Below are positions 36,220 to 51,402 of a DNA stretch of 64,000 bases, piece by piece (position 1 is the first letter of the stretch; each line of letters begins with the position of its first letter). The translations under genes and the position numbers were made by a program. The stretch comes from an uncultured virus (IMG/VR IMGVR_UViG_3300020362_000001) (lineage: Duplodnaviria; Heunggongvirae; Uroviricota; Caudoviricetes): the IMG/VR virus record IMGVR_UViG_3300020362_000001; one strand, 5' to 3'. The notes beneath the pieces were generated by a model that did no database searches, was not told the DNA's origin, and saw only the letters and a list, made by a program, of their open reading frames with translations.

Positions 36220-36462
36220 ATGAACCCTATCAAGAAAGAGACACAGGAACCACAATCGAAGATTGAAGATTTTACTTGCCATAAGTGTGGTAAACCAGCT
36301 ACTGGAAGATACTCTCCAGATAAAAATATTACTGGTTTGGCATTTTGTGATGAGCATCAGGAATTAATGGCTCTTGGTTTTTATCTTTTACTACAAAATA
36401 AAAAAGATAAATTTGATGAGCTTATGAATGCAACTGCAGGGACCGGTAGCTCAACTGGATAG
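36220..36462 (+). CDS. Hypothetical Zn-finger protein
   Basis: CHKCGKPA..FCDEH; stop codon lies inside the tRNA. Confidence 0.5.
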   Translation: MNPIKKETQEPQSKIEDFTCHKCGKPATGRYSPDKNITGLAFCDEHQELMALGFYLLLQNKKDKFDELMNATAGTGSSTG

Positions 36463-36513
36463 AGCCCTTGGTTACGACCCAAGAGGTTAGAGGTTCGAAT
36501 CCTCTCCGGTTCA
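36440..36513 (+). tRNA. tRNA-Arg(ACG), no encoded CCA
   Basis: Cloverleaf: GGACCGG/CCGGTTC acceptor, CTTGG-TTACGAC-CCAAG anticodon arm, AGAGG-TTCGAAT-CCTCT T arm. Confidence 0.93.
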
Positions 36514-40088: not shown

Positions 40089-40883
40089 ATGGCAAAAAAT
40101 GTCGTAGTATCCTTATCTGGAGGGATGGATTCCTCAACTTTACTACTCAGATGTTTATCAGAGTATGACAATGTAACAGCTTTATCTTTTGATTATGGTC
40201 AAAAGCATAGAGTAGAACTTGAAAGAGCTCAATCATTAGTAGATTATTTAAATACTAATGGTCAGAGTATTAAATATCAAGTTATAAAATTAGATGGTCT
40301 CGTTAATTTACTAAATTCAGCTTTAGTAACTGGCGGAGATGATGTACCAGAAGGTCATTATGAAGAAGATAATATGAAAGCTACTGTAGTACCTAATAGA
40401 AATAAAATATTTGCATCATTAGTACAGGCAGTTGCCTTATCCGAAGCAAATTCAAATGGTTTAGAAACCGATATTGCTCTGGGTATTCATGCTGGTGATC
40501 ACGCTATTTATCCTGATTGTAGACAAGAATTTAGAGATGCAGATGATGCAGCTTTTAGGATTGGTAATTGGGAAGCAGATAAAGTAGGATATTTTACACC
40601 CTATTTAGAAACAGATAAACTTGGAATTTTAAAAGATGGACAAAAATTGGTTAAAGAGCTCGGAATTGAGTTTAATGAGGTGTACAAACGTACTAATACA
40701 TCTTATAAGCCCTATCCTAGCGGGAATAGCGACTATAAATCAGCTTCATCTGTTGAAAGGATTGAAGCATTTATCAACTTGGGCGTGGACGATCCTGTAC
40801 AATACGAGGATGAAACTGGACCAGTCGATTACAACGTTGCGAAAACACATGTTGAAAAATTATTAGCAGAATACGCAGCATGA
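40089..40883 (+). CDS. queC: 7-cyano-7-deazaguanine synthase (lacks Zn-binding cysteines)
   Basis: SLSGGMDS, FDYGQKH, VPNRN, HAGDHAIYPDCR. Confidence 0.9.
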   Translation: MAKNVVVSLSGGMDSSTLLLRCLSEYDNVTALSFDYGQKHRVELERAQSLVDYLNTNGQSIKYQVIKLDGLVNLLNSALVTGGDDVPEGHYEEDNMKATVVPNRNKIFASLVQAVALSEANSNGLETDIALGIHAGDHAIYPDCRQEFRDADDAAFRIGNWEADKVGYFTPYLETDKLGILKDGQKLVKELGIEFNEVYKRTNTSYKPYPSGNSDYKSASSVERIEAFINLGVDDPVQYEDETGPVDYNVAKTHVEKLLAEYAA

Positions 40884-41218
40884 AAAAAATAATCTTATTT
40901 TTATTTTTATTTACTTCATTCTTATCCGGGCAAAGTGGCCCTAATCCCGAGATGTATGGATTATGGAAAAACCTAGATGGAGAATATGTTAGTATACAGC
41001 TCAATAATACTTTTCAAAGGTTTGAAATTAATCCTATTACTAAACAAAGAATACCCATTTCTAGTGGTACTTTAGAGGTAGTAGATAATGAATTACATAT
41101 AGTTCGTAAGGACACTATTGATAGCTATCAATTAGGATTTTTTGTTAATATGACTACTATGGTAATTACAAAACCTAGAAGTAGACGAGCATGGCTTTGG
41201 TTTAAAATTGGAAACTAA
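40880..41218 (+). CDS. Secreted protein with signal peptide
   Basis: MKKIILFLFLFTSFLSGQ N-terminus. Confidence 0.55.
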   Translation: MKKIILFLFLFTSFLSGQSGPNPEMYGLWKNLDGEYVSIQLNNTFQRFEINPITKQRIPISSGTLEVVDNELHIVRKDTIDSYQLGFFVNMTTMVITKPRSRRAWLWFKIGN

Positions 41219-41231
41219 AGTGTAATATAGT

Positions 41232-41253
41232 GGAGGGGGTTAAAACCCCCTTC
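41232..41253 (+). terminator. Hairpin, probable terminator
   Basis: GGAGGGGGT-TAAA-ACCCCCTTC; weak U tract. Confidence 0.6.
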
Positions 41254-41302
41254 TCTGTTATTACTGATTTCTTCATATTTATAGTATATAAACCTGCTTT
41301 AA

Positions 41303-42694
41303 ATGTCTACACTTACTAATAGAACCATTAAATCTACTTATCAGCAGCTGCTACAAGTAGAGAATAATGTTGTACAAGATGGACTCGGCACTTCTTCACT
41401 AAGTGCTTCATTTGACCTTACTGGATTAGAAAATATTACTGGATCACTAAACGTTAGTGGTACTACTGATTTAATAGGTAGTGCTTCCGTATCAGGTAGT
41501 ATGAGAATTAGTGGTACATTTGAAGTATTAGGTACAGCCTCCATTTCACATTTAATTACTACTTATGAATCCTCTTCTATTATATATGCAAGTGGATCTA
41601 CTAAATTTGGAGATGATACATCAGATACTCACCAGCGCACTGGTAGTATGACTATTTCAGGATCATTATTTAGTACTAACATTAGTGGTACATTTAGTGG
41701 TTCATATAAGGGAGATGCTAGTGGATTAACAGGTACAGTTACTTCTTCATTTGCGGAAAGTGCTAGTTTTGCCACTTCAGGTACTTATGCTTTAAGTTCT
41801 AGTGAAGCTACTACAGCAACAAATGTATTTGTATTACCCAAAAATACAGATGGCTCAACGCATTTTGTTTTATTTTCACAAGGTGTATCAGGTAGTTTTA
41901 GAGCAAATTCAGATTCAGGATTAAGTTATGTCCCTTCTACTAATACATTAACAGCAACTAAATTTATAGGTGCTTTAGAAGGAAATGCTACAACGGCAGA
42001 TACAGCATCAGTAGTATTAGGTACGATATTATCCGCCTCTTTTGCCTTAACTGCTTCACATGCTGAAAGTCAGTCAGTAGTTAATATTACATCTGGTTCA
42101 TTTGCAGCAAGTGGTGATGGTCCATTTACTGGATCCTTCTCTAGTAGTAGAGCATCAACTTTATCAGGCTCATTTACTGGTTCTTCTACTGGCTCATTTA
42201 CTGGTAGTGGTGCAGGATTAGTAGGAGTAGTAACTAGTTCATTTGCTATAACGGCTTCCCACGCACTTAATTCCGGTGGTGGTTCTGGAGCAGGATTTCC
42301 ATTTTCAGGTTCACGAGCTGATGTTACTGCCTCTTTAAATGTTACAGGTGGTATAGCTAATTTTACTGCAAGTATGGTAGTTGATGGAGCTCTTAGTGCT
42401 ACATCTATAACAGAAACCTCAGCATTAAAATATAAAGAAAATATTAATGAAATTACATCTTCTGATATAATTTATAACTTAAGACCGGTTACTTTTGATT
42501 GGAAAAAAGATGGTTCTCATGATGTTGGTCTTATAGCAGAAGAAGTTGGAGATCATATGCCCGAACTAGTTAGTAAAGATAAAGAAGGTAATGTTGAGGG
42601 AGTTAAATACTCCAAATTAACCTCTTTATTGATTAAAGCAGTTCAGGATCAACAAAAAGAAATAGACGAATTAAAAAGTTTATTAAAAAAATAA
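41303..42694 (+). CDS. Displaced tail fibre paralogue with S74-like chaperone
   Basis: GSF.GS repeats; ETSALKYKENI..LRPVTFDWK..GLIAEEV; own TATTTAT. Confidence 0.8.
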   Translation: MSTLTNRTIKSTYQQLLQVENNVVQDGLGTSSLSASFDLTGLENITGSLNVSGTTDLIGSASVSGSMRISGTFEVLGTASISHLITTYESSSIIYASGSTKFGDDTSDTHQRTGSMTISGSLFSTNISGTFSGSYKGDASGLTGTVTSSFAESASFATSGTYALSSSEATTATNVFVLPKNTDGSTHFVLFSQGVSGSFRANSDSGLSYVPSTNTLTATKFIGALEGNATTADTASVVLGTILSASFALTASHAESQSVVNITSGSFAASGDGPFTGSFSSSRASTLSGSFTGSSTGSFTGSGAGLVGVVTSSFAITASHALNSGGGSGAGFPFSGSRADVTASLNVTGGIANFTASMVVDGALSATSITETSALKYKENINEITSSDIIYNLRPVTFDWKKDGSHDVGLIAEEVGDHMPELVSKDKEGNVEGVKYSKLTSLLIKAVQDQQKEIDELKSLLKK

Positions 42695-42695
42695 A

Positions 42696-42768
42696 TTCCC
42701 GTGTGGACTGGGAACATAATATAGTCGCGGGTGGAGAGAACGCATCCGGAAAAAGCGTTACATATGTT
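42696..42768 (+). ncRNA. Candidate structured cis-regulatory RNA upstream of a YRG peptide
   Basis: GC-rich; TTCCCG/TGGGAA hairpin, CGGGTG/CATCCG stem, AACG/CGTT pseudoknot. Confidence 0.5.
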
Positions 42769-42790
42769 TAAATTTTTAAAATCTAAATGT

Positions 42791-42847
42791 ATGAAAAATG
42801 AATATATATATAGAGGAATAAAATATACTTCTACAGGTATAAAATAA
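42791..42847 (+). CDS. 18-aa YRG-motif peptide (DUF4278-like)
   Basis: MKNEYIYRGIKYTSTGIK between a structured leader and a terminator. Confidence 0.55.
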   Translation: MKNEYIYRGIKYTSTGIK

Positions 42848-42850
42848 ATT

Positions 42851-42875
42851 AAGGGGCTTTAGGCCCCTTTTTTTT
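42851..42875 (+). terminator. Intrinsic terminator
   Basis: AAGGGGC-TTTAG-GCCCCTT followed by T-run. Confidence 0.85.
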
Positions 42876-42976
42876 AAAAAAAAAGTAAATAAATTTGGTT
42901 TTCTTAAATAGTTATATTATATTGGAACCAAATTTGGTTCAAGTGACTGTAAAACCACTATAAAAAATTAACATTT

Positions 42977-43750
42977 ATGCTTAAACGAATCGAGGACTAT
43001 AATAAAGTTCTCCCAATCCTAGAATTATATACAGCAGTACAATCAGAGGGCAGCAGACAAGGCTACCCTACTATTGTTGTTAGAACATCAGGTTGCACTC
43101 ACCGTTGTTATTTTGGCGAAGGTGGATGGTGTGATTCTTGGTATACAAGTATTCATCCCGAAAAAGGTAAATATAGTTTTCAAGATATAATTGATATGTA
43201 CGATGCAAATCCTCATATTAGTGAAATGATGTTAACTGGTGGTTCACCCACTATGCACCCTAAAATAGTAAACGAATTAACACATTTAGCTAATGAAAGA
43301 GATATTTTTATCACTATCGAAACTGAAGGAAGTCATTTTCTTGCTACTGATTATCCCATTAATCTTCTTAGTATTAGTCCTAAGTTTTCCAATAGTGTTC
43401 CTGTACTGGGAGTGGAAACACCGCAAGGTGCGATCACTGATCAAAAAATGATTGATAGACATAATAAATTTAGAGTAAATAAAGATGCAATTAAAAAAAG
43501 TATTGATTATCACCTTGATTACCATATCAAGCCTGTCCTTGACAAAGACTTATCAATGGTTAAAGAGGTTGAAGAGTTCCTTAAAGATTTAGAAATTCCA
43601 GACCATAAAGTATGGGCTATGCCAGCTGGTGATGATAGAGAAGCCTTATTTGAAAGTTATGGTCCTGTAATGAATTTTGTAAGAGATAGAGGTTGGAGAT
43701 ATACAGGTAGATCTCATATAATGGCTTTTGGAACTGAAAGATGTGTTTAA
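42977..43750 (+). CDS. queE: 7-carboxy-7-deazaguanine synthase (radical SAM)
   Basis: ELY.AVQSEG, CTHRC..WCD, LTGGSP, IETEGS, SISPK. Confidence 0.9.
   Translation: MLKRIEDYNKVLPILELYTAVQSEGSRQGYPTIVVRTSGCTHRCYFGEGGWCDSWYTSIHPEKGKYSFQDIIDMYDANPHISEMMLTGGSPTMHPKIVNELTHLANERDIFITIETEGSHFLATDYPINLLSISPKFSNSVPVLGVETPQGAITDQKMIDRHNKFRVNKDAIKKSIDYHLDYHIKPVLDKDLSMVKEVEEFLKDLEIPDHKVWAMPAGDDREALFESYGPVMNFVRDRGWRYTGRSHIMAFGTERCV
43293..43451 (+). CDS. Putative nested +1-frame membrane microprotein (52 aa)
   Basis: MKEIFLSLSKLKEVIFLLLIIPLIFLVLVLSFPIVFLYWEWKHRKVRSLIKK. Confidence 0.4.
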   Translation: MKEIFLSLSKLKEVIFLLLIIPLIFLVLVLSFPIVFLYWEWKHRKVRSLIKK

Positions 43751-44002
43751 ATGAGTTATATTATAGGTAAAGCATGTATTGGAGTTAAGGATAGTGCCTG
43801 TATAGCGGCATGTCCTGTAGATTGTATCCATACAGGTGAAGAACAAATGTACATTGACCCTGAAGAATGTATAAATTGCGGTGCGTGTGTACCAGAATGT
43901 CCAGTAGAAGCCATTTTCGAGGATGAAGATGAAGCTATAGAGGCTGGAGAATTAGATTCAGTAAAAGCAAATTACAAATTTTTTGATTTAGAATATGAGT
44001 AG
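43751..44002 (+). CDS. Ferredoxin (7Fe/8Fe type)
   Basis: CIGVKDSACIAACPVDCI..CINCGACVPECP. Confidence 0.92.
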   Translation: MSYIIGKACIGVKDSACIAACPVDCIHTGEEQMYIDPEECINCGACVPECPVEAIFEDEDEAIEAGELDSVKANYKFFDLEYE

Positions 44003-44684
44003 AAAAAAGAAGTTTACAGATTTAGAATCTGTACCTGTAGGTTATGCAAATGGTGTTGCACCTGGTTTTCCATTAAATGATAAGGAAAAAACTAAAATGA
44101 TAGAACGTGCGGCTAAAGCGTACGGTAAATTCTTAAGTGAATTAAAATGTGATTGGGAAAATGATCCTAATTCACAAGATACTCCAAGAAGAGTAGCAAA
44201 AGCATATGTAAATGATTTATGGGAAGGTAGATACACCGCTATGAGTGAAATTACTTCTTTCCCTAGTGATGGATATGATGGAATAGTGATTGAAAGAAAC
44301 ATACCTATTACTTCTATGTGTTCACACCATCATCAAACTATAAGAGGTTTAGTACATATTGGTTATGTAGTAGATGAAGATGGTAGAGTAATTGGTTTAT
44401 CTAAACTAAATAGAATAGTAGAATTATTTGCCAGAAGAGGAGCAATACAAGAACAACTTACTTCTGCTATACATAATGCCGTGGATACTATTTGTGAAAA
44501 TAATAAAGGAGTTATTGTTACAGTAGTGGCTACACATAATTGTGTTAGCTGTAGAGGTGTTAAACATAATGGTGCTTCAATGGTTACAACTAAAGCATCT
44601 GGTGTGTTTATGGAAAATGAAAATTTAGCTCGTAAAGAGTTTTTTGATAGTATAAAAATTAATAATGGAAATCACCCTGTATAA
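43995..44684 (+). CDS. folE: GTP cyclohydrolase I
   Basis: DTPRRVAK, SMCSHH, GLSKLNR, QEQLT, HNCVSCRGV. Confidence 0.95.
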   Translation: MSRKKKFTDLESVPVGYANGVAPGFPLNDKEKTKMIERAAKAYGKFLSELKCDWENDPNSQDTPRRVAKAYVNDLWEGRYTAMSEITSFPSDGYDGIVIERNIPITSMCSHHHQTIRGLVHIGYVVDEDGRVIGLSKLNRIVELFARRGAIQEQLTSAIHNAVDTICENNKGVIVTVVATHNCVSCRGVKHNGASMVTTKASGVFMENENLARKEFFDSIKINNGNHPV

Positions 44685-45076
44685 TGTTAGTATTAGATAA
44701 AAAATTACTTTTAAGTTGGAGAGATCTTGATGATCTTATAGAAATACTATGTAAAAAAATAACAGAAGAATTACCTAATATAGATTCAGTACATGGTATA
44801 GCAAGAGGTGGTTTAATACCAGCGGTATTAATTTCACATCAATTAGGATTAAAATATACTAATGAAATTTATCCTAATACCCTAGTAGTAGATGATATTT
44901 GTGATTCGGGTGAAACATTAAAAAATGCACCTGGAGTTTATACTGCCACTTTACATTATAAAAAATCAGCAATAGTAAAACCTACTTTATATGCTAAATT
45001 AGTAGAGGCAGAAGATAATTGGGTTGTATATCCCTGGGAAAGACATGATAGTGCACCCGTAAGAGACAATACATGA
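44684..45076 (+). CDS. Type I phosphoribosyltransferase (Gpt/Hpt-like)
   Basis: GIARGGLIPA, LVVDDICDSGETL, WVVYPWE. Confidence 0.88.
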   Translation: MLVLDKKLLLSWRDLDDLIEILCKKITEELPNIDSVHGIARGGLIPAVLISHQLGLKYTNEIYPNTLVVDDICDSGETLKNAPGVYTATLHYKKSAIVKPTLYAKLVEAEDNWVVYPWERHDSAPVRDNT

Positions 45077-51329: not shown

Positions 51330-51402
51330 TGCGGGGTAGAGCAGTGGCCAGCTCGTCGGGCTCATAACCCGAAGGTCGGAGGTTCGAATCCTCCTCCCGC
51401 CA
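51330..51402 (+). tRNA. Initiator tRNA-Met(CAT), no encoded CCA
   Basis: TCGGG-CTCATAA-CCCGA arm with three G-C pairs; 1:72 mismatch; GGAGG-TTCGAAT-CCTCC T arm. Confidence 0.95.

What the first reader, a model, noticed from the sequence alone, without database searches (positions are those of the whole stretch)
42696..42875. Structured RNA, YRG micropeptide and terminator unit
A GC-rich leader (hairpin 42696-42714; stem CGGGUG/CAUCCG whose loop AACG pairs with CGUU after an A-rich linker, an H-type pseudoknot) precedes MKNEYIYRGIKYTSTGIK. Known: short YRG peptides (DUF4278-like) follow the Downstream-peptide (glutamine-II) riboswitch in marine cyanobacteria and their phages. This leader lacks that motif's CGUUCA opening, so it may be a different riboswitch controlling the same peptide type.
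Basis: partly seen in the sequence, partly recalled or inferred. Interest (0 to 1): 0.7.

Follow-up and report, generated by a model that had tools for sequence, protein, structure and literature searches.

The report
New leader RNA before YRG micropeptide
A marine phage carries a small cassette, copied from its Flavobacteriaceae hosts, in which a very strongly conserved double-pseudoknot RNA leader sits in front of a tiny 'YRG' peptide gene; the leader looks like a new, unclassified riboswitch-type regulator of micropeptide genes.

Summary
Window 42696-42877 holds a hairpin, a pseudoknot-capable stem-loop, an 18-codon YRG ORF (42791-42847) and an intrinsic terminator.

It is a 191-bp accessory cassette. 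The closest relative (queE 98% identical) lacks it, and so do 5 of 5 whole records of related phages.

The leader is not phage-specific.

On 103 distinct leaders the 5' hairpin (S1) and a second helix (S2) covary. S2 pairs the S1 loop with AGUCGC.

No Rfam 15 family matches, including glutamine-I, glutamine-II and preQ1.

Downstream ORFs are all micropeptides:
- The long bacterial YRG ones are true DUF4278 (10 of 10 over Pfam's cut-off).
- In one genus, 8 of 8 DUF4278 genes sit directly behind the motif.

CGUU also forms the base of the hairpin around the start codon.

Best reading: a new riboswitch-like translational leader, ligand unknown, captured by the phage together with a minimal DUF4278-type peptide. 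Ligand binding is not shown.

The parts
42683..42882 (+). Accessory cassette. It is a 191-bp indel relative to the closest relative L003, bounded by the direct repeat TTAAAAAAA (42683-42691 and 42874-42882).
   Evidence: Alignment A1: L003, L029 and L006 go from the tail-fibre stop region straight to the queE promoter region. Whole records of 5 relatives hold no copy.
42696..42714 (+). S1 helix: TTCCC (42696-42700) with GGGAA (42710-42714). It encloses L1 (GU) and the 5' strand of S2.
   Evidence: Covariation on 103 leaders: 3 of 5 pairs change on both sides (UA44/AU38/GC8; CG78/AU8/UA8/UG9). RNAalifold predicts it independently.
42703..42728 (+). S2 pseudoknot helix: GU(G)GACU (42703-42709, with G42705 bulged) pairs with AGUCGC (42723-42728). 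The A/U-rich strand 42715-42722 lies between them.
   Evidence: Pair 42706-42726 is GC in 96 sequences and AU in 7, with none unpaired. The helix is 99.7% paired overall.
42729..42747 (+). P3 hairpin: GGGUG/CAUCC with the 9-nt loop GAGAGAACG. This is the invariant core GGGTGGAG(A/T)GAACGCA(T/C)CC.
   Evidence: The only change is G.U to G-C at one pair (71 versus 32 sequences). The 19-mer is unchanged in 14 of 14 complete hits found through the 5' domain alone and in 15 of 15 hits found with the covariance model.
42739..42759 (+). PK2: loop AACG (42739-42742) with CGUU (42756-42759), separated by P3's 3' strand and the 8-nt linker 42748-42755.
   Evidence: CGUU is kept in 102 of 103 leaders at a fixed 8-nt distance, while the linker sequence varies. 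There is no covariation, so the pairing is inferred.
42756..42800 (+). Start-codon hairpin. CGUU (42756-42759) pairs with AAUG (42797-42800) at the base. CAUAUGUUUAAAU pairs with AUCUAAAUGUAUG and covers ATG 42791.
   Evidence: Seen in the minimum-free-energy folds. In relatives CGUU pairs at or after the AUG in 41/43 (NQGH), 11/21 (YRG) and 2/5 (lipoprotein) leaders.
42791..42847 (+). Micropeptide ORF MKNEYIYRGIKYTSTGIK (18 codons plus stop). It is a single YRG unit of the DUF4278 type.
   Evidence: In 5 phage-type alleles the core YIYRGI.YT shows only synonymous codon changes. The upstream in-frame ATG 42764 is ATA in L097. Pfam does not score this short peptide.
42851..42877 (+). Intrinsic terminator: AAGGGGC-TTT-AGGCCCCTT followed by a T run.
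   Evidence: Consensus scan: 6 terminator-like sites in 3 kb against 1.1 +/- 1.2 in shuffles. L097 has a different GC stem at the same place.
41303..42694 (+). Upstream gene: tail fibre with a C-terminal Peptidase_S74 chaperone domain. The cassette starts 2 nt after its stop codon.
   Evidence: Pfam PF13884, E = 6.6e-10. A contig from an RNA library bridges 42600-42792.
42977..43750 (+). Downstream gene: queE (radical SAM), behind its own conserved upstream motif. It is not part of the cassette.
   Evidence: Pfam Radical_SAM. It is 78.7% identical at DNA level to annotated queE of Flavobacterium phage immuto.

Best explanation
Window 42683-42882 is a small gene cassette that the phage took from its marine Flavobacteriaceae hosts. 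It has three parts: a roughly 65-nt structured leader, a minimal DUF4278-type 'YRG' micropeptide gene, and a terminator.

The leader belongs to a widespread RNA family that is not in Rfam 15. It is built from two stacked H-type pseudoknots:
- S1 + S2;
- P3 + PK2, with an invariant core GGGUGGAG(A/U)GAACGCAYCC.

Proposed mechanism, which is inferred and not shown: the four bases CGUU have two possible partners. One is AACG in the P3 loop (PK2). The other is the first codons of the ORF, where CGUU forms the base of a hairpin that holds the start codon. When a bound ligand or factor stabilises PK2, CGUU is withdrawn, the hairpin loses its base, and translation of the micropeptide rises. This would be an ON switch acting on translation, which suits hosts without Shine-Dalgarno sites.

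In the phage the unit is read through from the late tail-fibre gene and ends at its own terminator.

What is shown: the family, its covarying S1 and S2 helices, the invariance of the core, the link to DUF4278 and other micropeptides, and the cassette's accessory status.
What is inferred: PK2, the switch logic, and any ligand.

The confidence of 0.55 is for the whole statement, including the riboswitch-like switch. The part that is shown (conserved structured leader family plus micropeptide cassette of host origin) I hold at about 0.9.
For: **Accessory cassette**
- L003 (queE 98% identical) lacks it.
- 0 of 5 whole records of relatives hold the motif, and 4 of those records are 97-100% complete.
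- The unit sits in three different gene contexts among 8 metagenome homologues.

**Host origin and spread**
108 are true and 12 are GC-rich chance hits. Nearly all true hits are Flavobacteriaceae, Flavobacteriales or 'uncultured Bacteroidetes' genomes.
- 16 of 17 viral loci are true.
- The motif is in 11 of 29 genomes of one genus and 3 of 151 sampled genomes of the family.

**Structure**
- 98.9% of cells are paired.
- 82 cells change on both sides, against 28.5 +/- 3.4 in shuffles (0 of 500 shuffles reach this).
- S1 has 3 covarying pairs and S2 has 1.
- RNAalifold finds S1 and P3.

**5' UTR position**
- A TAnnTTT[GA] box lies 8-22 nt upstream of S1 in 48 of 98 bacterial loci.

**Conserved aptamer-like core with varied platforms**
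- Platforms include hairpins complementary to codons 2-8 that change with the coding sequence (CGC/GCG, CGUC/GACG, UGC/GCA).
- In L185/L300 a bare intrinsic terminator follows the motif.

**Switch logic**
- CGUU pairs at or after the AUG in 41 of 43 NQGH leaders.
- Blocking CGUU raises the predicted unpaired probability of the start region in 16 of 20 YRG and 10 of 43 NQGH leaders, and lowers it in none.

**Peptide**
- 10 of 10 long YRG peptides hit DUF4278 at 26.6-41.4 bits (cut-off 25.3).
- 8 of 8 DUF4278 genes in one genus lie about 55 nt behind the motif.
- The phage alleles show a codon pattern of purifying selection.

**Present in RNA libraries**
- Contigs cover 42600-42792 and 42729-42874.
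- Several contigs hold only the leader core and run on into other flanks. One 30-nt flank reads the same as L205.
Against: - No ligand, and no binding of any kind, has been tested.
- P3 and PK2 never vary, so covariation neither supports nor refutes them. Part of that invariance is ascertainment, because the 19-mer was the search pattern. The 14 hits anchored on the 5' domain and the 15 covariance-model hits ease this concern but do not remove it.
- Pairing of the AUG itself is no more frequent than with shuffled spacers: 17/21 against 288/420, and 25/43 against 554/860.
- The predicted accessibility gain is small for the NQGH class (0.38 against 0.32).
- The regulated genes are all micropeptides of unknown function. 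None of 47 larger downstream proteins points to a metabolite or pathway.
- The window's own 18-aa peptide does not score against DUF4278.
- Contigs from RNA libraries may contain DNA, and they show neither transcript ends nor strand.
- The sequences are related, so shuffle-based covariation statistics overstate independence.
Confidence: 0.55

Rival explanations
1. The leader is a binding site for a protein, or for the ribosome or an sRNA, rather than for a small molecule. On this reading it is a translational operator shared by a small regulon of micropeptide genes.
For: - All regulated genes are tiny ORFs with no metabolic theme.
- The 19-nt core is extremely invariant, as is seen for some protein operators.
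- There are only 1-3 copies per genome.
Against: - No candidate protein gene is linked to the motif.
- The compact double pseudoknot, with covarying stems around invariant loops, and the varied expression platforms including a terminator, are what metabolite aptamers look like.
- Phages carry the RNA without any obvious partner gene.
Confidence: 0.22
2. The leader is a constitutive structured 5' leader. It would act as an mRNA-stabilising cap or translation enhancer for very short mRNAs in Shine-Dalgarno-less Bacteroidota, with no sensing function.
For: - S1 lies at or near the inferred transcript 5' end in the YRG class. 5'-terminal structures are known to protect mRNAs (general knowledge, not tested here).
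- Contigs from RNA libraries contain the leader core.
Against: - A stabiliser does not need about 40 invariant unpaired or loop nucleotides.
- It also does not need a conserved CGUU that can pair with two alternative partners.
- In the phage and in L090-type contigs the leader is internal to a longer transcript context, not 5'-terminal.
Confidence: 0.1
3. The leader is a self-cleaving ribozyme or RNA-processing element that separates the micropeptide mRNA from upstream message.
For: - It is a small pseudoknotted RNA with an invariant core.
- In the phage it lies between cistrons.
Against: - No match to any Rfam ribozyme family.
- In bacteria it sits directly behind promoters, where there is nothing to cleave off.
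- RNA-library contigs run through the whole leader (42600-42792 and 42729-874).
Confidence: 0.04
4. The pseudoknot is a preQ1-type riboswitch serving the phage's queC/queE/folE genes. This was my first idea, prompted by the neighbouring genes.
For: - It is an H-type pseudoknot with an A-rich linker.
- It lies 220 nt upstream of queE and 1.8 kb downstream of queC.
Against: - No PreQ1 family match at E<=10.
- A terminator separates it from queE.
- queE relatives lack it.
- None of 47 downstream proteins in other loci is a queuosine gene.
Confidence: 0.01

Closest known systems
Glutamine-II riboswitch (Downstream-peptide motif, RF01704)
   Same: - It is a small pseudoknotted 5' leader in marine bacteria and their phages, in front of very short ORFs that carry DUF4278 (passages of PMC2864571 and PMC6212724).
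- The key pseudoknot helix has the same four pairs, C:G, G:C, U:A and U:A, formed by CGUU and AACG. The AACG strand lies in a hairpin loop, and the helices can stack coaxially (passages of PMC6698751, compared).
- The proposed ON logic, by release of the start region, is the same.
   Different: - The covariance model does not match: nothing at the motif at E<=10, and 0 of 5 motif-bearing genomes score over the cut-off.
- Strand order is reversed. Here CGUU is 3' of the hairpin, not the 5' 'CGUUC' opening.
- There is no separate linking strand. An extra S1/S2 pseudoknot replaces P1.
- The hosts are Flavobacteriaceae.
- Three further peptide families are served.
- The ligand is unknown.
Glutamine-I riboswitch (glnA RNA, RF01739)
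   Same: It has the same ligand-pocket helix as glutamine-II, according to PMC6698751. It is linked to DUF4278/IF17 genes in cyanobacteria.
   Different: It has a three-way junction with an E-loop and no pseudoknot. The model does not match: and 0 of 5 genomes over the cut-off, none at the motif.
H-type pseudoknot riboswitches (preQ1-I, SAM-II/V, guanidine-III)
   Same: P3 + PK2 is a classic H-type pseudoknot. A 5-nt loop faces the PK2 groove and an 8-nt linker runs along P3. PMC6698751 names these classes as using such folds for ligand pockets.
   Different: None of their Rfam models matches. This RNA has a second pseudoknot in tandem, and its gene associations differ.
DUF4278 (PF14105) / IF17-like small proteins
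   Same: - Bacterial peptides behind the same leader score 26.6-41.4 bits (10 of 10).
- They carry 2-3 YRG repeats.
- The phage peptide keeps one repeat, Y-I-Y-R-G-I-x-Y.
   Different: - The phage peptide has 18 aa, too short for the HMM (0 of 2 short forms score).
- There is no IF17 C-terminal part.
- The organisms are not cyanobacteria. Among 14 control genomes only Synechococcus elongatus has the family.

Membership tests
Glutamine-II riboswitch (RF01704) | Match to the family covariance model at or above 33 bits | tested here: not met
   No match over the leader at gathering score or at E<=10. In 5 motif-bearing genomes the best score is 17.7 bits, at another place.
Glutamine-II riboswitch (RF01704) | A 5'-terminal CGUUC strand pairing with GGAACGG in the P2 loop, with a CGC linking strand in the groove (PMC6698751) | tested here: not met
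   AACG lies in a hairpin loop, but CGUU is 3' of that hairpin and no separate linking strand exists. The same four pairs are present in a different order.
Glutamine-II riboswitch (RF01704) | Lies upstream of short DUF4278 ORFs | tested here: met
   10 of 10 long YRG ORFs behind the leader hit PF14105. 8 of 8 DUF4278 genes of one genus lie behind the motif.
Glutamine-II riboswitch (RF01704) | Selective binding of L-glutamine | not testable with these tools
   Needs in-line probing or ITC.
Glutamine-I riboswitch (RF01739) | Match to the family covariance model at or above 35 bits | tested here: not met
   0 of 5 genomes score over the cut-off, and no match lies at the motif.
preQ1-I riboswitch (RF00522) | Covariance-model match and association with queuosine genes | tested here: not met
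   No match. Only the window has que genes nearby, and 0 of 47 downstream proteins elsewhere are queuosine genes.
DUF4278 (PF14105), the window's own peptide | HMM score at or above 25.3 bits | tested here: inconclusive
   The 38-aa frame and the 27- and 22-aa forms give no hit at E<=10. An 18-aa peptide cannot reach the cut-off. Kinship rests on the shared leader and on the YRG core.
Riboswitch (generic) | Conserved structured aptamer with covarying stems in a 5' UTR | tested here: met
   S1 and S2 covary. A promoter-like box lies just upstream in 48 of 98 loci.
Riboswitch (generic) | Different expression platforms and genes behind one aptamer | tested here: met
   Start-codon hairpins of several kinds and one bare terminator. 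Four peptide families.
Riboswitch (generic) | Direct ligand binding that changes the fold | not testable with these tools
Intrinsic terminator | GC-rich hairpin followed by a U run | tested here: met
   42851-42869 (8 pairs, 5 of them GC) followed by TTTTTTTT.

The most novel reading that the evidence does not exclude
The leader is a third architecture of glutamine-sensing riboswitch, or a sensor of a related nitrogen-status metabolite. It would rebuild the CGUU:AACG pocket helix of glutamine-I and glutamine-II in a permuted, double-pseudoknot scaffold. It would control DUF4278/IF17-like and other micropeptides in streamlined marine Flavobacteriaceae. Their phages would have captured it, as cyanophages captured glutamine riboswitches, to tie a micropeptide to the host's nitrogen state during late infection.
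Probability: 0.15. Interest if true: 0.9.

Novelty: new variant of a known kind. Interest (0 to 1): 0.8.

Why it matters
If the reading holds, this is a new and widespread class of riboswitch-like RNA in abundant, mostly uncultured marine Flavobacteriaceae and their phages. Four points make it matter:

- **It ties DUF4278 'YRG' micropeptides to a second leader.** Until now these were tied to the cyanobacterial glutamine riboswitch. The second leader has a different structure but the same core helix. That is either convergence or deep remodelling of an aptamer.
- **It defines a small regulon.** Four micropeptide families that gene callers miss would share one leader.
- **It gives a concrete target of about 65 nt for ligand screening.**
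- **It shows a phage picking up a host regulatory RNA and peptide as one 191-bp cassette.** This also points to the phage's host group.

The literature searches found no description of it: DUF4278 (6 papers), glutamine riboswitch with Flavobacteri* (3 papers), and riboswitch candidate / Flavobacteri* / pseudoknot. Those searches cover only the held open-access library. Rfam 15 has no matching family.

Tried and rejected
- **preQ1 riboswitch for queE.** Rejected; see the rival explanations.
- **Sigma-70 promoter reading of CATAAT/TATAGT in the leader.** No -35 box at a usable spacing (read). The scan lists no promoter there. RNA-library contigs include that stretch.
- **Alternative long helix CCCGU/GCGGG**, proposed by RNAalifold on the 9 near-identical leaders. 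Rejected because the CCC strand covaries with the nearer GGG (S1), while the GGG of P3 is invariant.
- **In-frame ATG 42764** (27-aa ORF) and **GTG 42731** (38-aa ORF) as starts. ATG 42764 is ATA in L097, and the frame is closed in L090-type leaders.
- **Exact and semi-exact patterns in viral contigs.** The 31-mer gave 0. GAGAGAACG..GAAAAAGCGTT gave 0. The 19-mer gave one chance hit inside a gene.
- **Back-translated peptide pattern.** 6 chance hits.
- **blastn of the unit against 50,697 GenBank phage records.** Only the terminator matched, at query positions 146-191.
- **The search for related loci with the peptide.** Query too short.
- **PF14105 on the metagenome records.** Records not held.
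- **Weak covariance-model hits in G002** (28 and 21 bits). They do not show the motif's helices.
- **Pfam and NCBIfam on the NQGH, MKYYNKTRTIEQK and lipoprotein peptides.** Nothing above the cut-offs.
- **Larger genes further downstream.** Heterogeneous: esterases, desaturases, DUF4956, peroxidase, SpoU, transporters. No theme.
- **Stretches of the window without cover in the RNA-library contigs, and contig depths**. Not used as evidence of transcript ends or levels.
- **Complex prediction, structure prediction and the large protein searches.** Not used. No binding or fold claim is made.
Full report
**1. What is in the window**

The region after the tail-fibre gene reads as follows. The tail-fibre gene is 41303-42694 and carries a Peptidase_S74 C-terminus.

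- A hairpin TTCCC...GGGAA at 42696-42714.
- An A/U-rich stretch.
- AGUCGC, then the stem GGGUG/CAUCC (42729-42747) with loop GAGAGAACG.
- The linker GGAAAAAG, then CGUU (42756-42759).
- An AU-rich hairpin that contains ATG 42791.
- The ORF MKNEYIYRGIKYTSTGIK, ending at 42847.
- A GC hairpin with a T run (42851-42877).

queE starts at 42977, behind its own conserved upstream motif.

The 191-nt stretch folds better than all 200 shuffles (z = -2.78).

**2. It matches no known RNA family**

- Rfam 15 over the whole window at gathering score finds only two tRNAs.
- At E<=10 on 401 nt, the 22 weak matches all sit on the terminator or the AT-rich part.
- On the 111-nt leader alone, the single match is an AU hairpin read as a miRNA precursor.
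- Seven bacterial and viral representatives give nothing at the motif at E<=1.
- The glutamine-II and glutamine-I models, run over five whole genomes that carry the motif, pass their cut-offs in 0 of 5. Their weak hits lie elsewhere.

**3. The unit is an accessory cassette**

- Of 283 IMG/VR relatives of queE, 80 were fetched. The closest, L003 (98% identical), runs from the tail-fibre stop straight into the queE upstream motif.
- The difference is a 191-bp indel flanked by TTAAAAAAA on both sides. The repeat is A-rich, so it may be chance.
- Model R2 finds no copy in the 8 queE-relative loci searched.
- It finds none in 5 of 5 whole records of relatives, 4 of which are rated 97-100% complete.
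- GenBank phages match only the terminator.
- Cellulophaga phage phiST and Flavobacterium phage immuto, the nearest named relatives by queE, have nothing like it upstream of queE.

**4. Close homologues sit in three contexts**

A metagenome scan returned 22 loci. Eight are true homologues and 14 are unrelated chance matches.

The eight fall into three gene contexts:
- tail fibre - unit - terminator - queE;
- a small basic protein gene - unit - next ORF 5 nt later, with no terminator;
- a membrane protein gene - unit - terminator - convergent genes.

Conservation starts exactly at the hairpin and ends at the peptide's stop codon. The leader is identical in these eight, while the peptide diverges (MKNEYIYRGIKYTSTGIK, MENVYIYRGIKYTYKGIK, MSKYEYIYRGIAYTPNNKK).

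**5. The leader is a host RNA family**

- The pattern GGGTGGAGNGAACGCAYCC found 17 viral loci, 16 of them true.
108 are true and 12 are GC-rich chance hits.
- By their record titles the true hits are marine Flavobacteriaceae, Flavobacteriales, Cryomorphaceae, Candidatus Arcticimaribacter, Candidatus Marisimplicoccus and 'uncultured Bacteroidetes' MAGs and SAGs. One contig is binned as Bdellovibrionota.

With covariance model R2 the spread is:

| Genomes searched | With the motif |
|---|---|
| 5 carrier genomes (1.4-2.2 Mb) | 5, one strong copy each |
| 29 genomes of one genus | 11 |
| 151 sampled genomes of the family (stricter filters) | 3 |

So the family is widespread, but confined to particular lineages with small genomes.

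**6. Structure**

The analysis used 103 distinct 77-nt leaders (A3). I tested four helices.

| Helix | Window positions | Result |
|---|---|---|
| S1 | 42696-700 / 42710-714 | Covaries at 3 of 5 pairs (UA44/AU38/GC8; CG78/AU8/UA8/UG9; AU45/GU12/GC5/UG5) |
| S2 | loop GU(G)GACU with AGUCGC (42703-709 / 42723-728) | 99.7% paired; one pair is GC in 96 and AU in 7, with no mispair |
| P3 | 42729-733 / 42743-747 | Changes only G.U to G-C (71 versus 32) |
| PK2 | AACG / CGUU (42739-742 / 42756-759) | 99.8% paired and invariant |

- Over the whole structure, 98.9% of cells pair.
- 82 cells change on both sides, against 28.5 +/- 3.4 in shuffles (0 of 500).
- Sliding the partners drops pairing to 26-41%. 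This control is weak, because the structure was derived from these same sequences.
- RNAalifold independently returns S1 and P3.

P3 and the 5' strand of PK2 were part of the search pattern. Two samples that did not depend on that pattern show the same 19-mer:
- 14 of 14 complete true hits from a scan anchored only on S1/S2. That scan returned 26 loci: 11 chance hits and 1 truncated true hit.
- 15 of 15 hits found with the covariance model.

So the core is truly invariant. PK2 rests on three things: complementarity, the fixed 8-nt spacing of CGUU behind a linker of variable sequence, and the alternative pairing described in section 8. It does not rest on covariation.

The resulting picture is two H-type pseudoknots in tandem. 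The 3' strand of S2 runs directly into P3.

**7. What lies behind the leader**

In 137 true hits, some of which are the same contig fetched twice, the first ORFs are all small.

| Class | Hits |
|---|---|
| 'NQGH' peptides (for example MSDKIMVALEPNQGHA...) | 60 |
| YRG peptides | 33 |
| 41-aa MKYYNKTRTIEQK... family, counting its overlapping frame | 26, plus 5 more MKYFNK... forms among the 9 'other' |
| Small lipoproteins (...LPPNVNSNKYSKKR) | 5 |
| Too short to judge | 4 |

- In the L185/L300 type an intrinsic terminator follows the motif with no ORF.
- The long YRG peptides, with 2-3 YRG repeats, hit Pfam DUF4278 above the cut-off in 10 of 10. The 22-aa and 27-aa phage forms score in 0 of 2.
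- The link also holds when searched from the peptide side. In the genus of G005, DUF4278 was found in 8 of 29 genomes, once each. Each copy starts about 55 nt downstream of that genome's motif.
- Among 14 control genomes, only Synechococcus elongatus has the family.
- The other three peptide classes match no Pfam or NCBIfam family.
- Larger genes further downstream (47 tested) are heterogeneous.

**8. Expression platform**

In bacteria a Bacteroidota-type TAnnTTT[GA] box lies 8-22 nt upstream of S1 in 48 of 98 loci. For the YRG class it lies about 6 nt upstream, so the motif begins the transcript. NQGH-class loci have an extra covarying hairpin (GTGAA..TTCAC) between the promoter and S1.

Downstream, CGUU is the 5' base of a long imperfect hairpin whose other arm is the start codon region:
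- In the minimum-free-energy fold, CGUU pairs at or after the AUG in 41 of 43 NQGH, 11 of 21 YRG and 2 of 5 lipoprotein leaders.
- The arm changes together with codons 2-3: CGC with AGCG, CGUC with GACG, UGC with AGCA.
- In the window, CGUU pairs with AAUG (42797-800), and CAUAUG... pairs with ...UGUAUG over ATG 42791.
- Blocking CGUU, to mimic PK2, raises the predicted unpaired probability of positions -3 to +9. For YRG it goes from 0.36 to 0.54 (16 of 20 up, 0 down). For NQGH it goes from 0.32 to 0.38 (10 of 43 up, 0 down).

Against this reading:
- AUG pairing itself is no commoner than with shuffled spacers.
- The effect on NQGH leaders is small.

**9. The ORF is a gene**

- Among five phage-type alleles, the residues Y-I-Y-R-G-I-x-Y-T change only synonymously (TAT/TAC, GGT/GGA/GGG, ATA/ATT, ACC/ACT). 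Replacements fall at three other positions.
- All 21 distinct YRG alleles keep Y-R-G.
- The phage leader and its spacer closely resemble the bacterial YRG-class leaders. This fits capture of a host DUF4278 gene and its reduction to one repeat.

**10. Presence in the sea and in RNA libraries**

- The stretch is held by 20 listed runs from 11 studies, 6 of them RNA libraries.
- Four RNA-library runs were laid. All are contigs, so they show neither transcript ends, strand nor level, and DNA carry-over is possible.
- One contig bridges the tail-fibre 3' end into the leader (42600-42792). Another covers 42729-42874.
- In one run, seven contigs match only the leader core (42716-42775) and continue into unlike flanks. 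One 30-nt flank is identical to the L205 bacterial DUF4278 leader.
- That is what a repeated, conserved leader shared by several organisms would give.

**11. Comparison with the known**

What the literature says:
- Downstream-peptide (glutamine-II) RNAs precede cyanobacterial ORFs of 17-100 aa (passages of PMC2864571).
- Those ORFs mostly encode DUF4278/IF17-like proteins, and the switch is translational ON (passages of PMC6212724).
- In the crystal-structure paper, the conserved nucleotides and the glutamine pocket lie in the PK helix formed by 5' CGUUC and a GGAACGG hairpin-loop strand, with a CGC strand in the groove (passages of PMC6698751).

How this leader compares:
- It has the same four pairs (C:G, G:C, U:A, U:A), and AACG again sits in a hairpin loop.
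- CGUU comes after the hairpin rather than before it.
- The groove strand would be the loop's own GAGAG.
- An S1/S2 pseudoknot takes the place of P1.
- The family models do not recognise it.

So it works like a glutamine-II riboswitch in layout and regulon, but it is not a member. Whether the likeness reflects shared ligand chemistry is open. I put that at about 0.15.

**12. Verdict**

- The finding is real and more interesting than a single phage oddity. It is a conserved double-pseudoknot leader family of marine Flavobacteriaceae and their phages, not in Rfam 15. It was not found in my literature searches (open-access library only).
- The family is tightly linked to DUF4278 and other micropeptide genes.
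- In this window it is present as a 191-bp host-derived cassette at the end of a late operon.
- The riboswitch function and the PK2 switch are the best-supported mechanism, but they remain inferred.

Noticed in passing
window 42942-42973 (and 42907-42939): A motif AGTGACTGTAAAACCACTATAAAAAATTAACA lies directly upstream of the queE ATG. It is conserved in most of the 80 queE relatives printed, even where the upstream gene differs. In the closest relatives it is preceded by TAGTTATATTATATTGG and by the 14-nt palindrome AACCAAATTTGGTT (42926-42939). It is likely a phage promoter or operator.
   Followed up: no
window 40089-45076: A 7-deazaguanine (queuosine/archaeosine-type) gene set is interrupted by a small ORF (40880-41218) and the tail-fibre gene. 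Its members:
- queC, 40089-40883 (Pfam QueC);
- queE, 42977-43750 (radical SAM);
- a 4Fe-4S-like 83-aa ORF, 43751-44002;
- a GTP-cyclohydrolase-I-like ORF, 43995-44684;
- a phosphoribosyltransferase-like ORF, 44684-45076.

The last three are named only by likeness to annotated relatives.
   Followed up: partly
window 41222-41253: GTAATATAGTGG is followed by the terminator-like hairpin GGAGGGGGTTAAAACCCCCTTC, just upstream of the tail-fibre gene. The first 10 bases resemble the leader's ATAATATAGTCG.
   Followed up: no
window 36440-36513 and 51330-51402: Two tRNA genes (Rfam tRNA, 63.5 and 61.5 bits).
   Followed up: no
L137, L165, L173, L202, L208, L221, L225, L239, L250 (about 15-45 nt upstream of S1): In NQGH-class bacterial loci an extra hairpin lies between the promoter-like box and S1. 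Its arms covary: GTGAAT/ATTCAC, CGAAT/ATTCG, GTGAAA/TTTCAC, GTGA/TCAC.
   Followed up: partly
L185 and L300 (about 20 nt after CGTTAC): Here an intrinsic terminator (AAAAGCCACTG..CAGTGGCTTTTTTTT) follows the motif directly, with no small ORF. This is either a transcription-termination platform or a stand-alone small RNA form of the family.
   Followed up: no
L134, L148, L172, L188, L207, L251 and others (85-170 nt after the motif): A 41-aa family MKY(Y/F)NKTRTIEQK...Q(N)xLL..IL has no Pfam or NCBIfam match. The ORFs ending '...YEILQQNTNY' that I first took for another class are the same DNA read in an overlapping frame.
   Followed up: partly
L113, L122, L124 (about 70-200 nt after the motif): In these viral contigs the short NQGH ORF is followed by a GC-rich, apparently structured stretch that ends in a terminator-like hairpin. 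The unit is itself preceded by a terminator.
   Followed up: no
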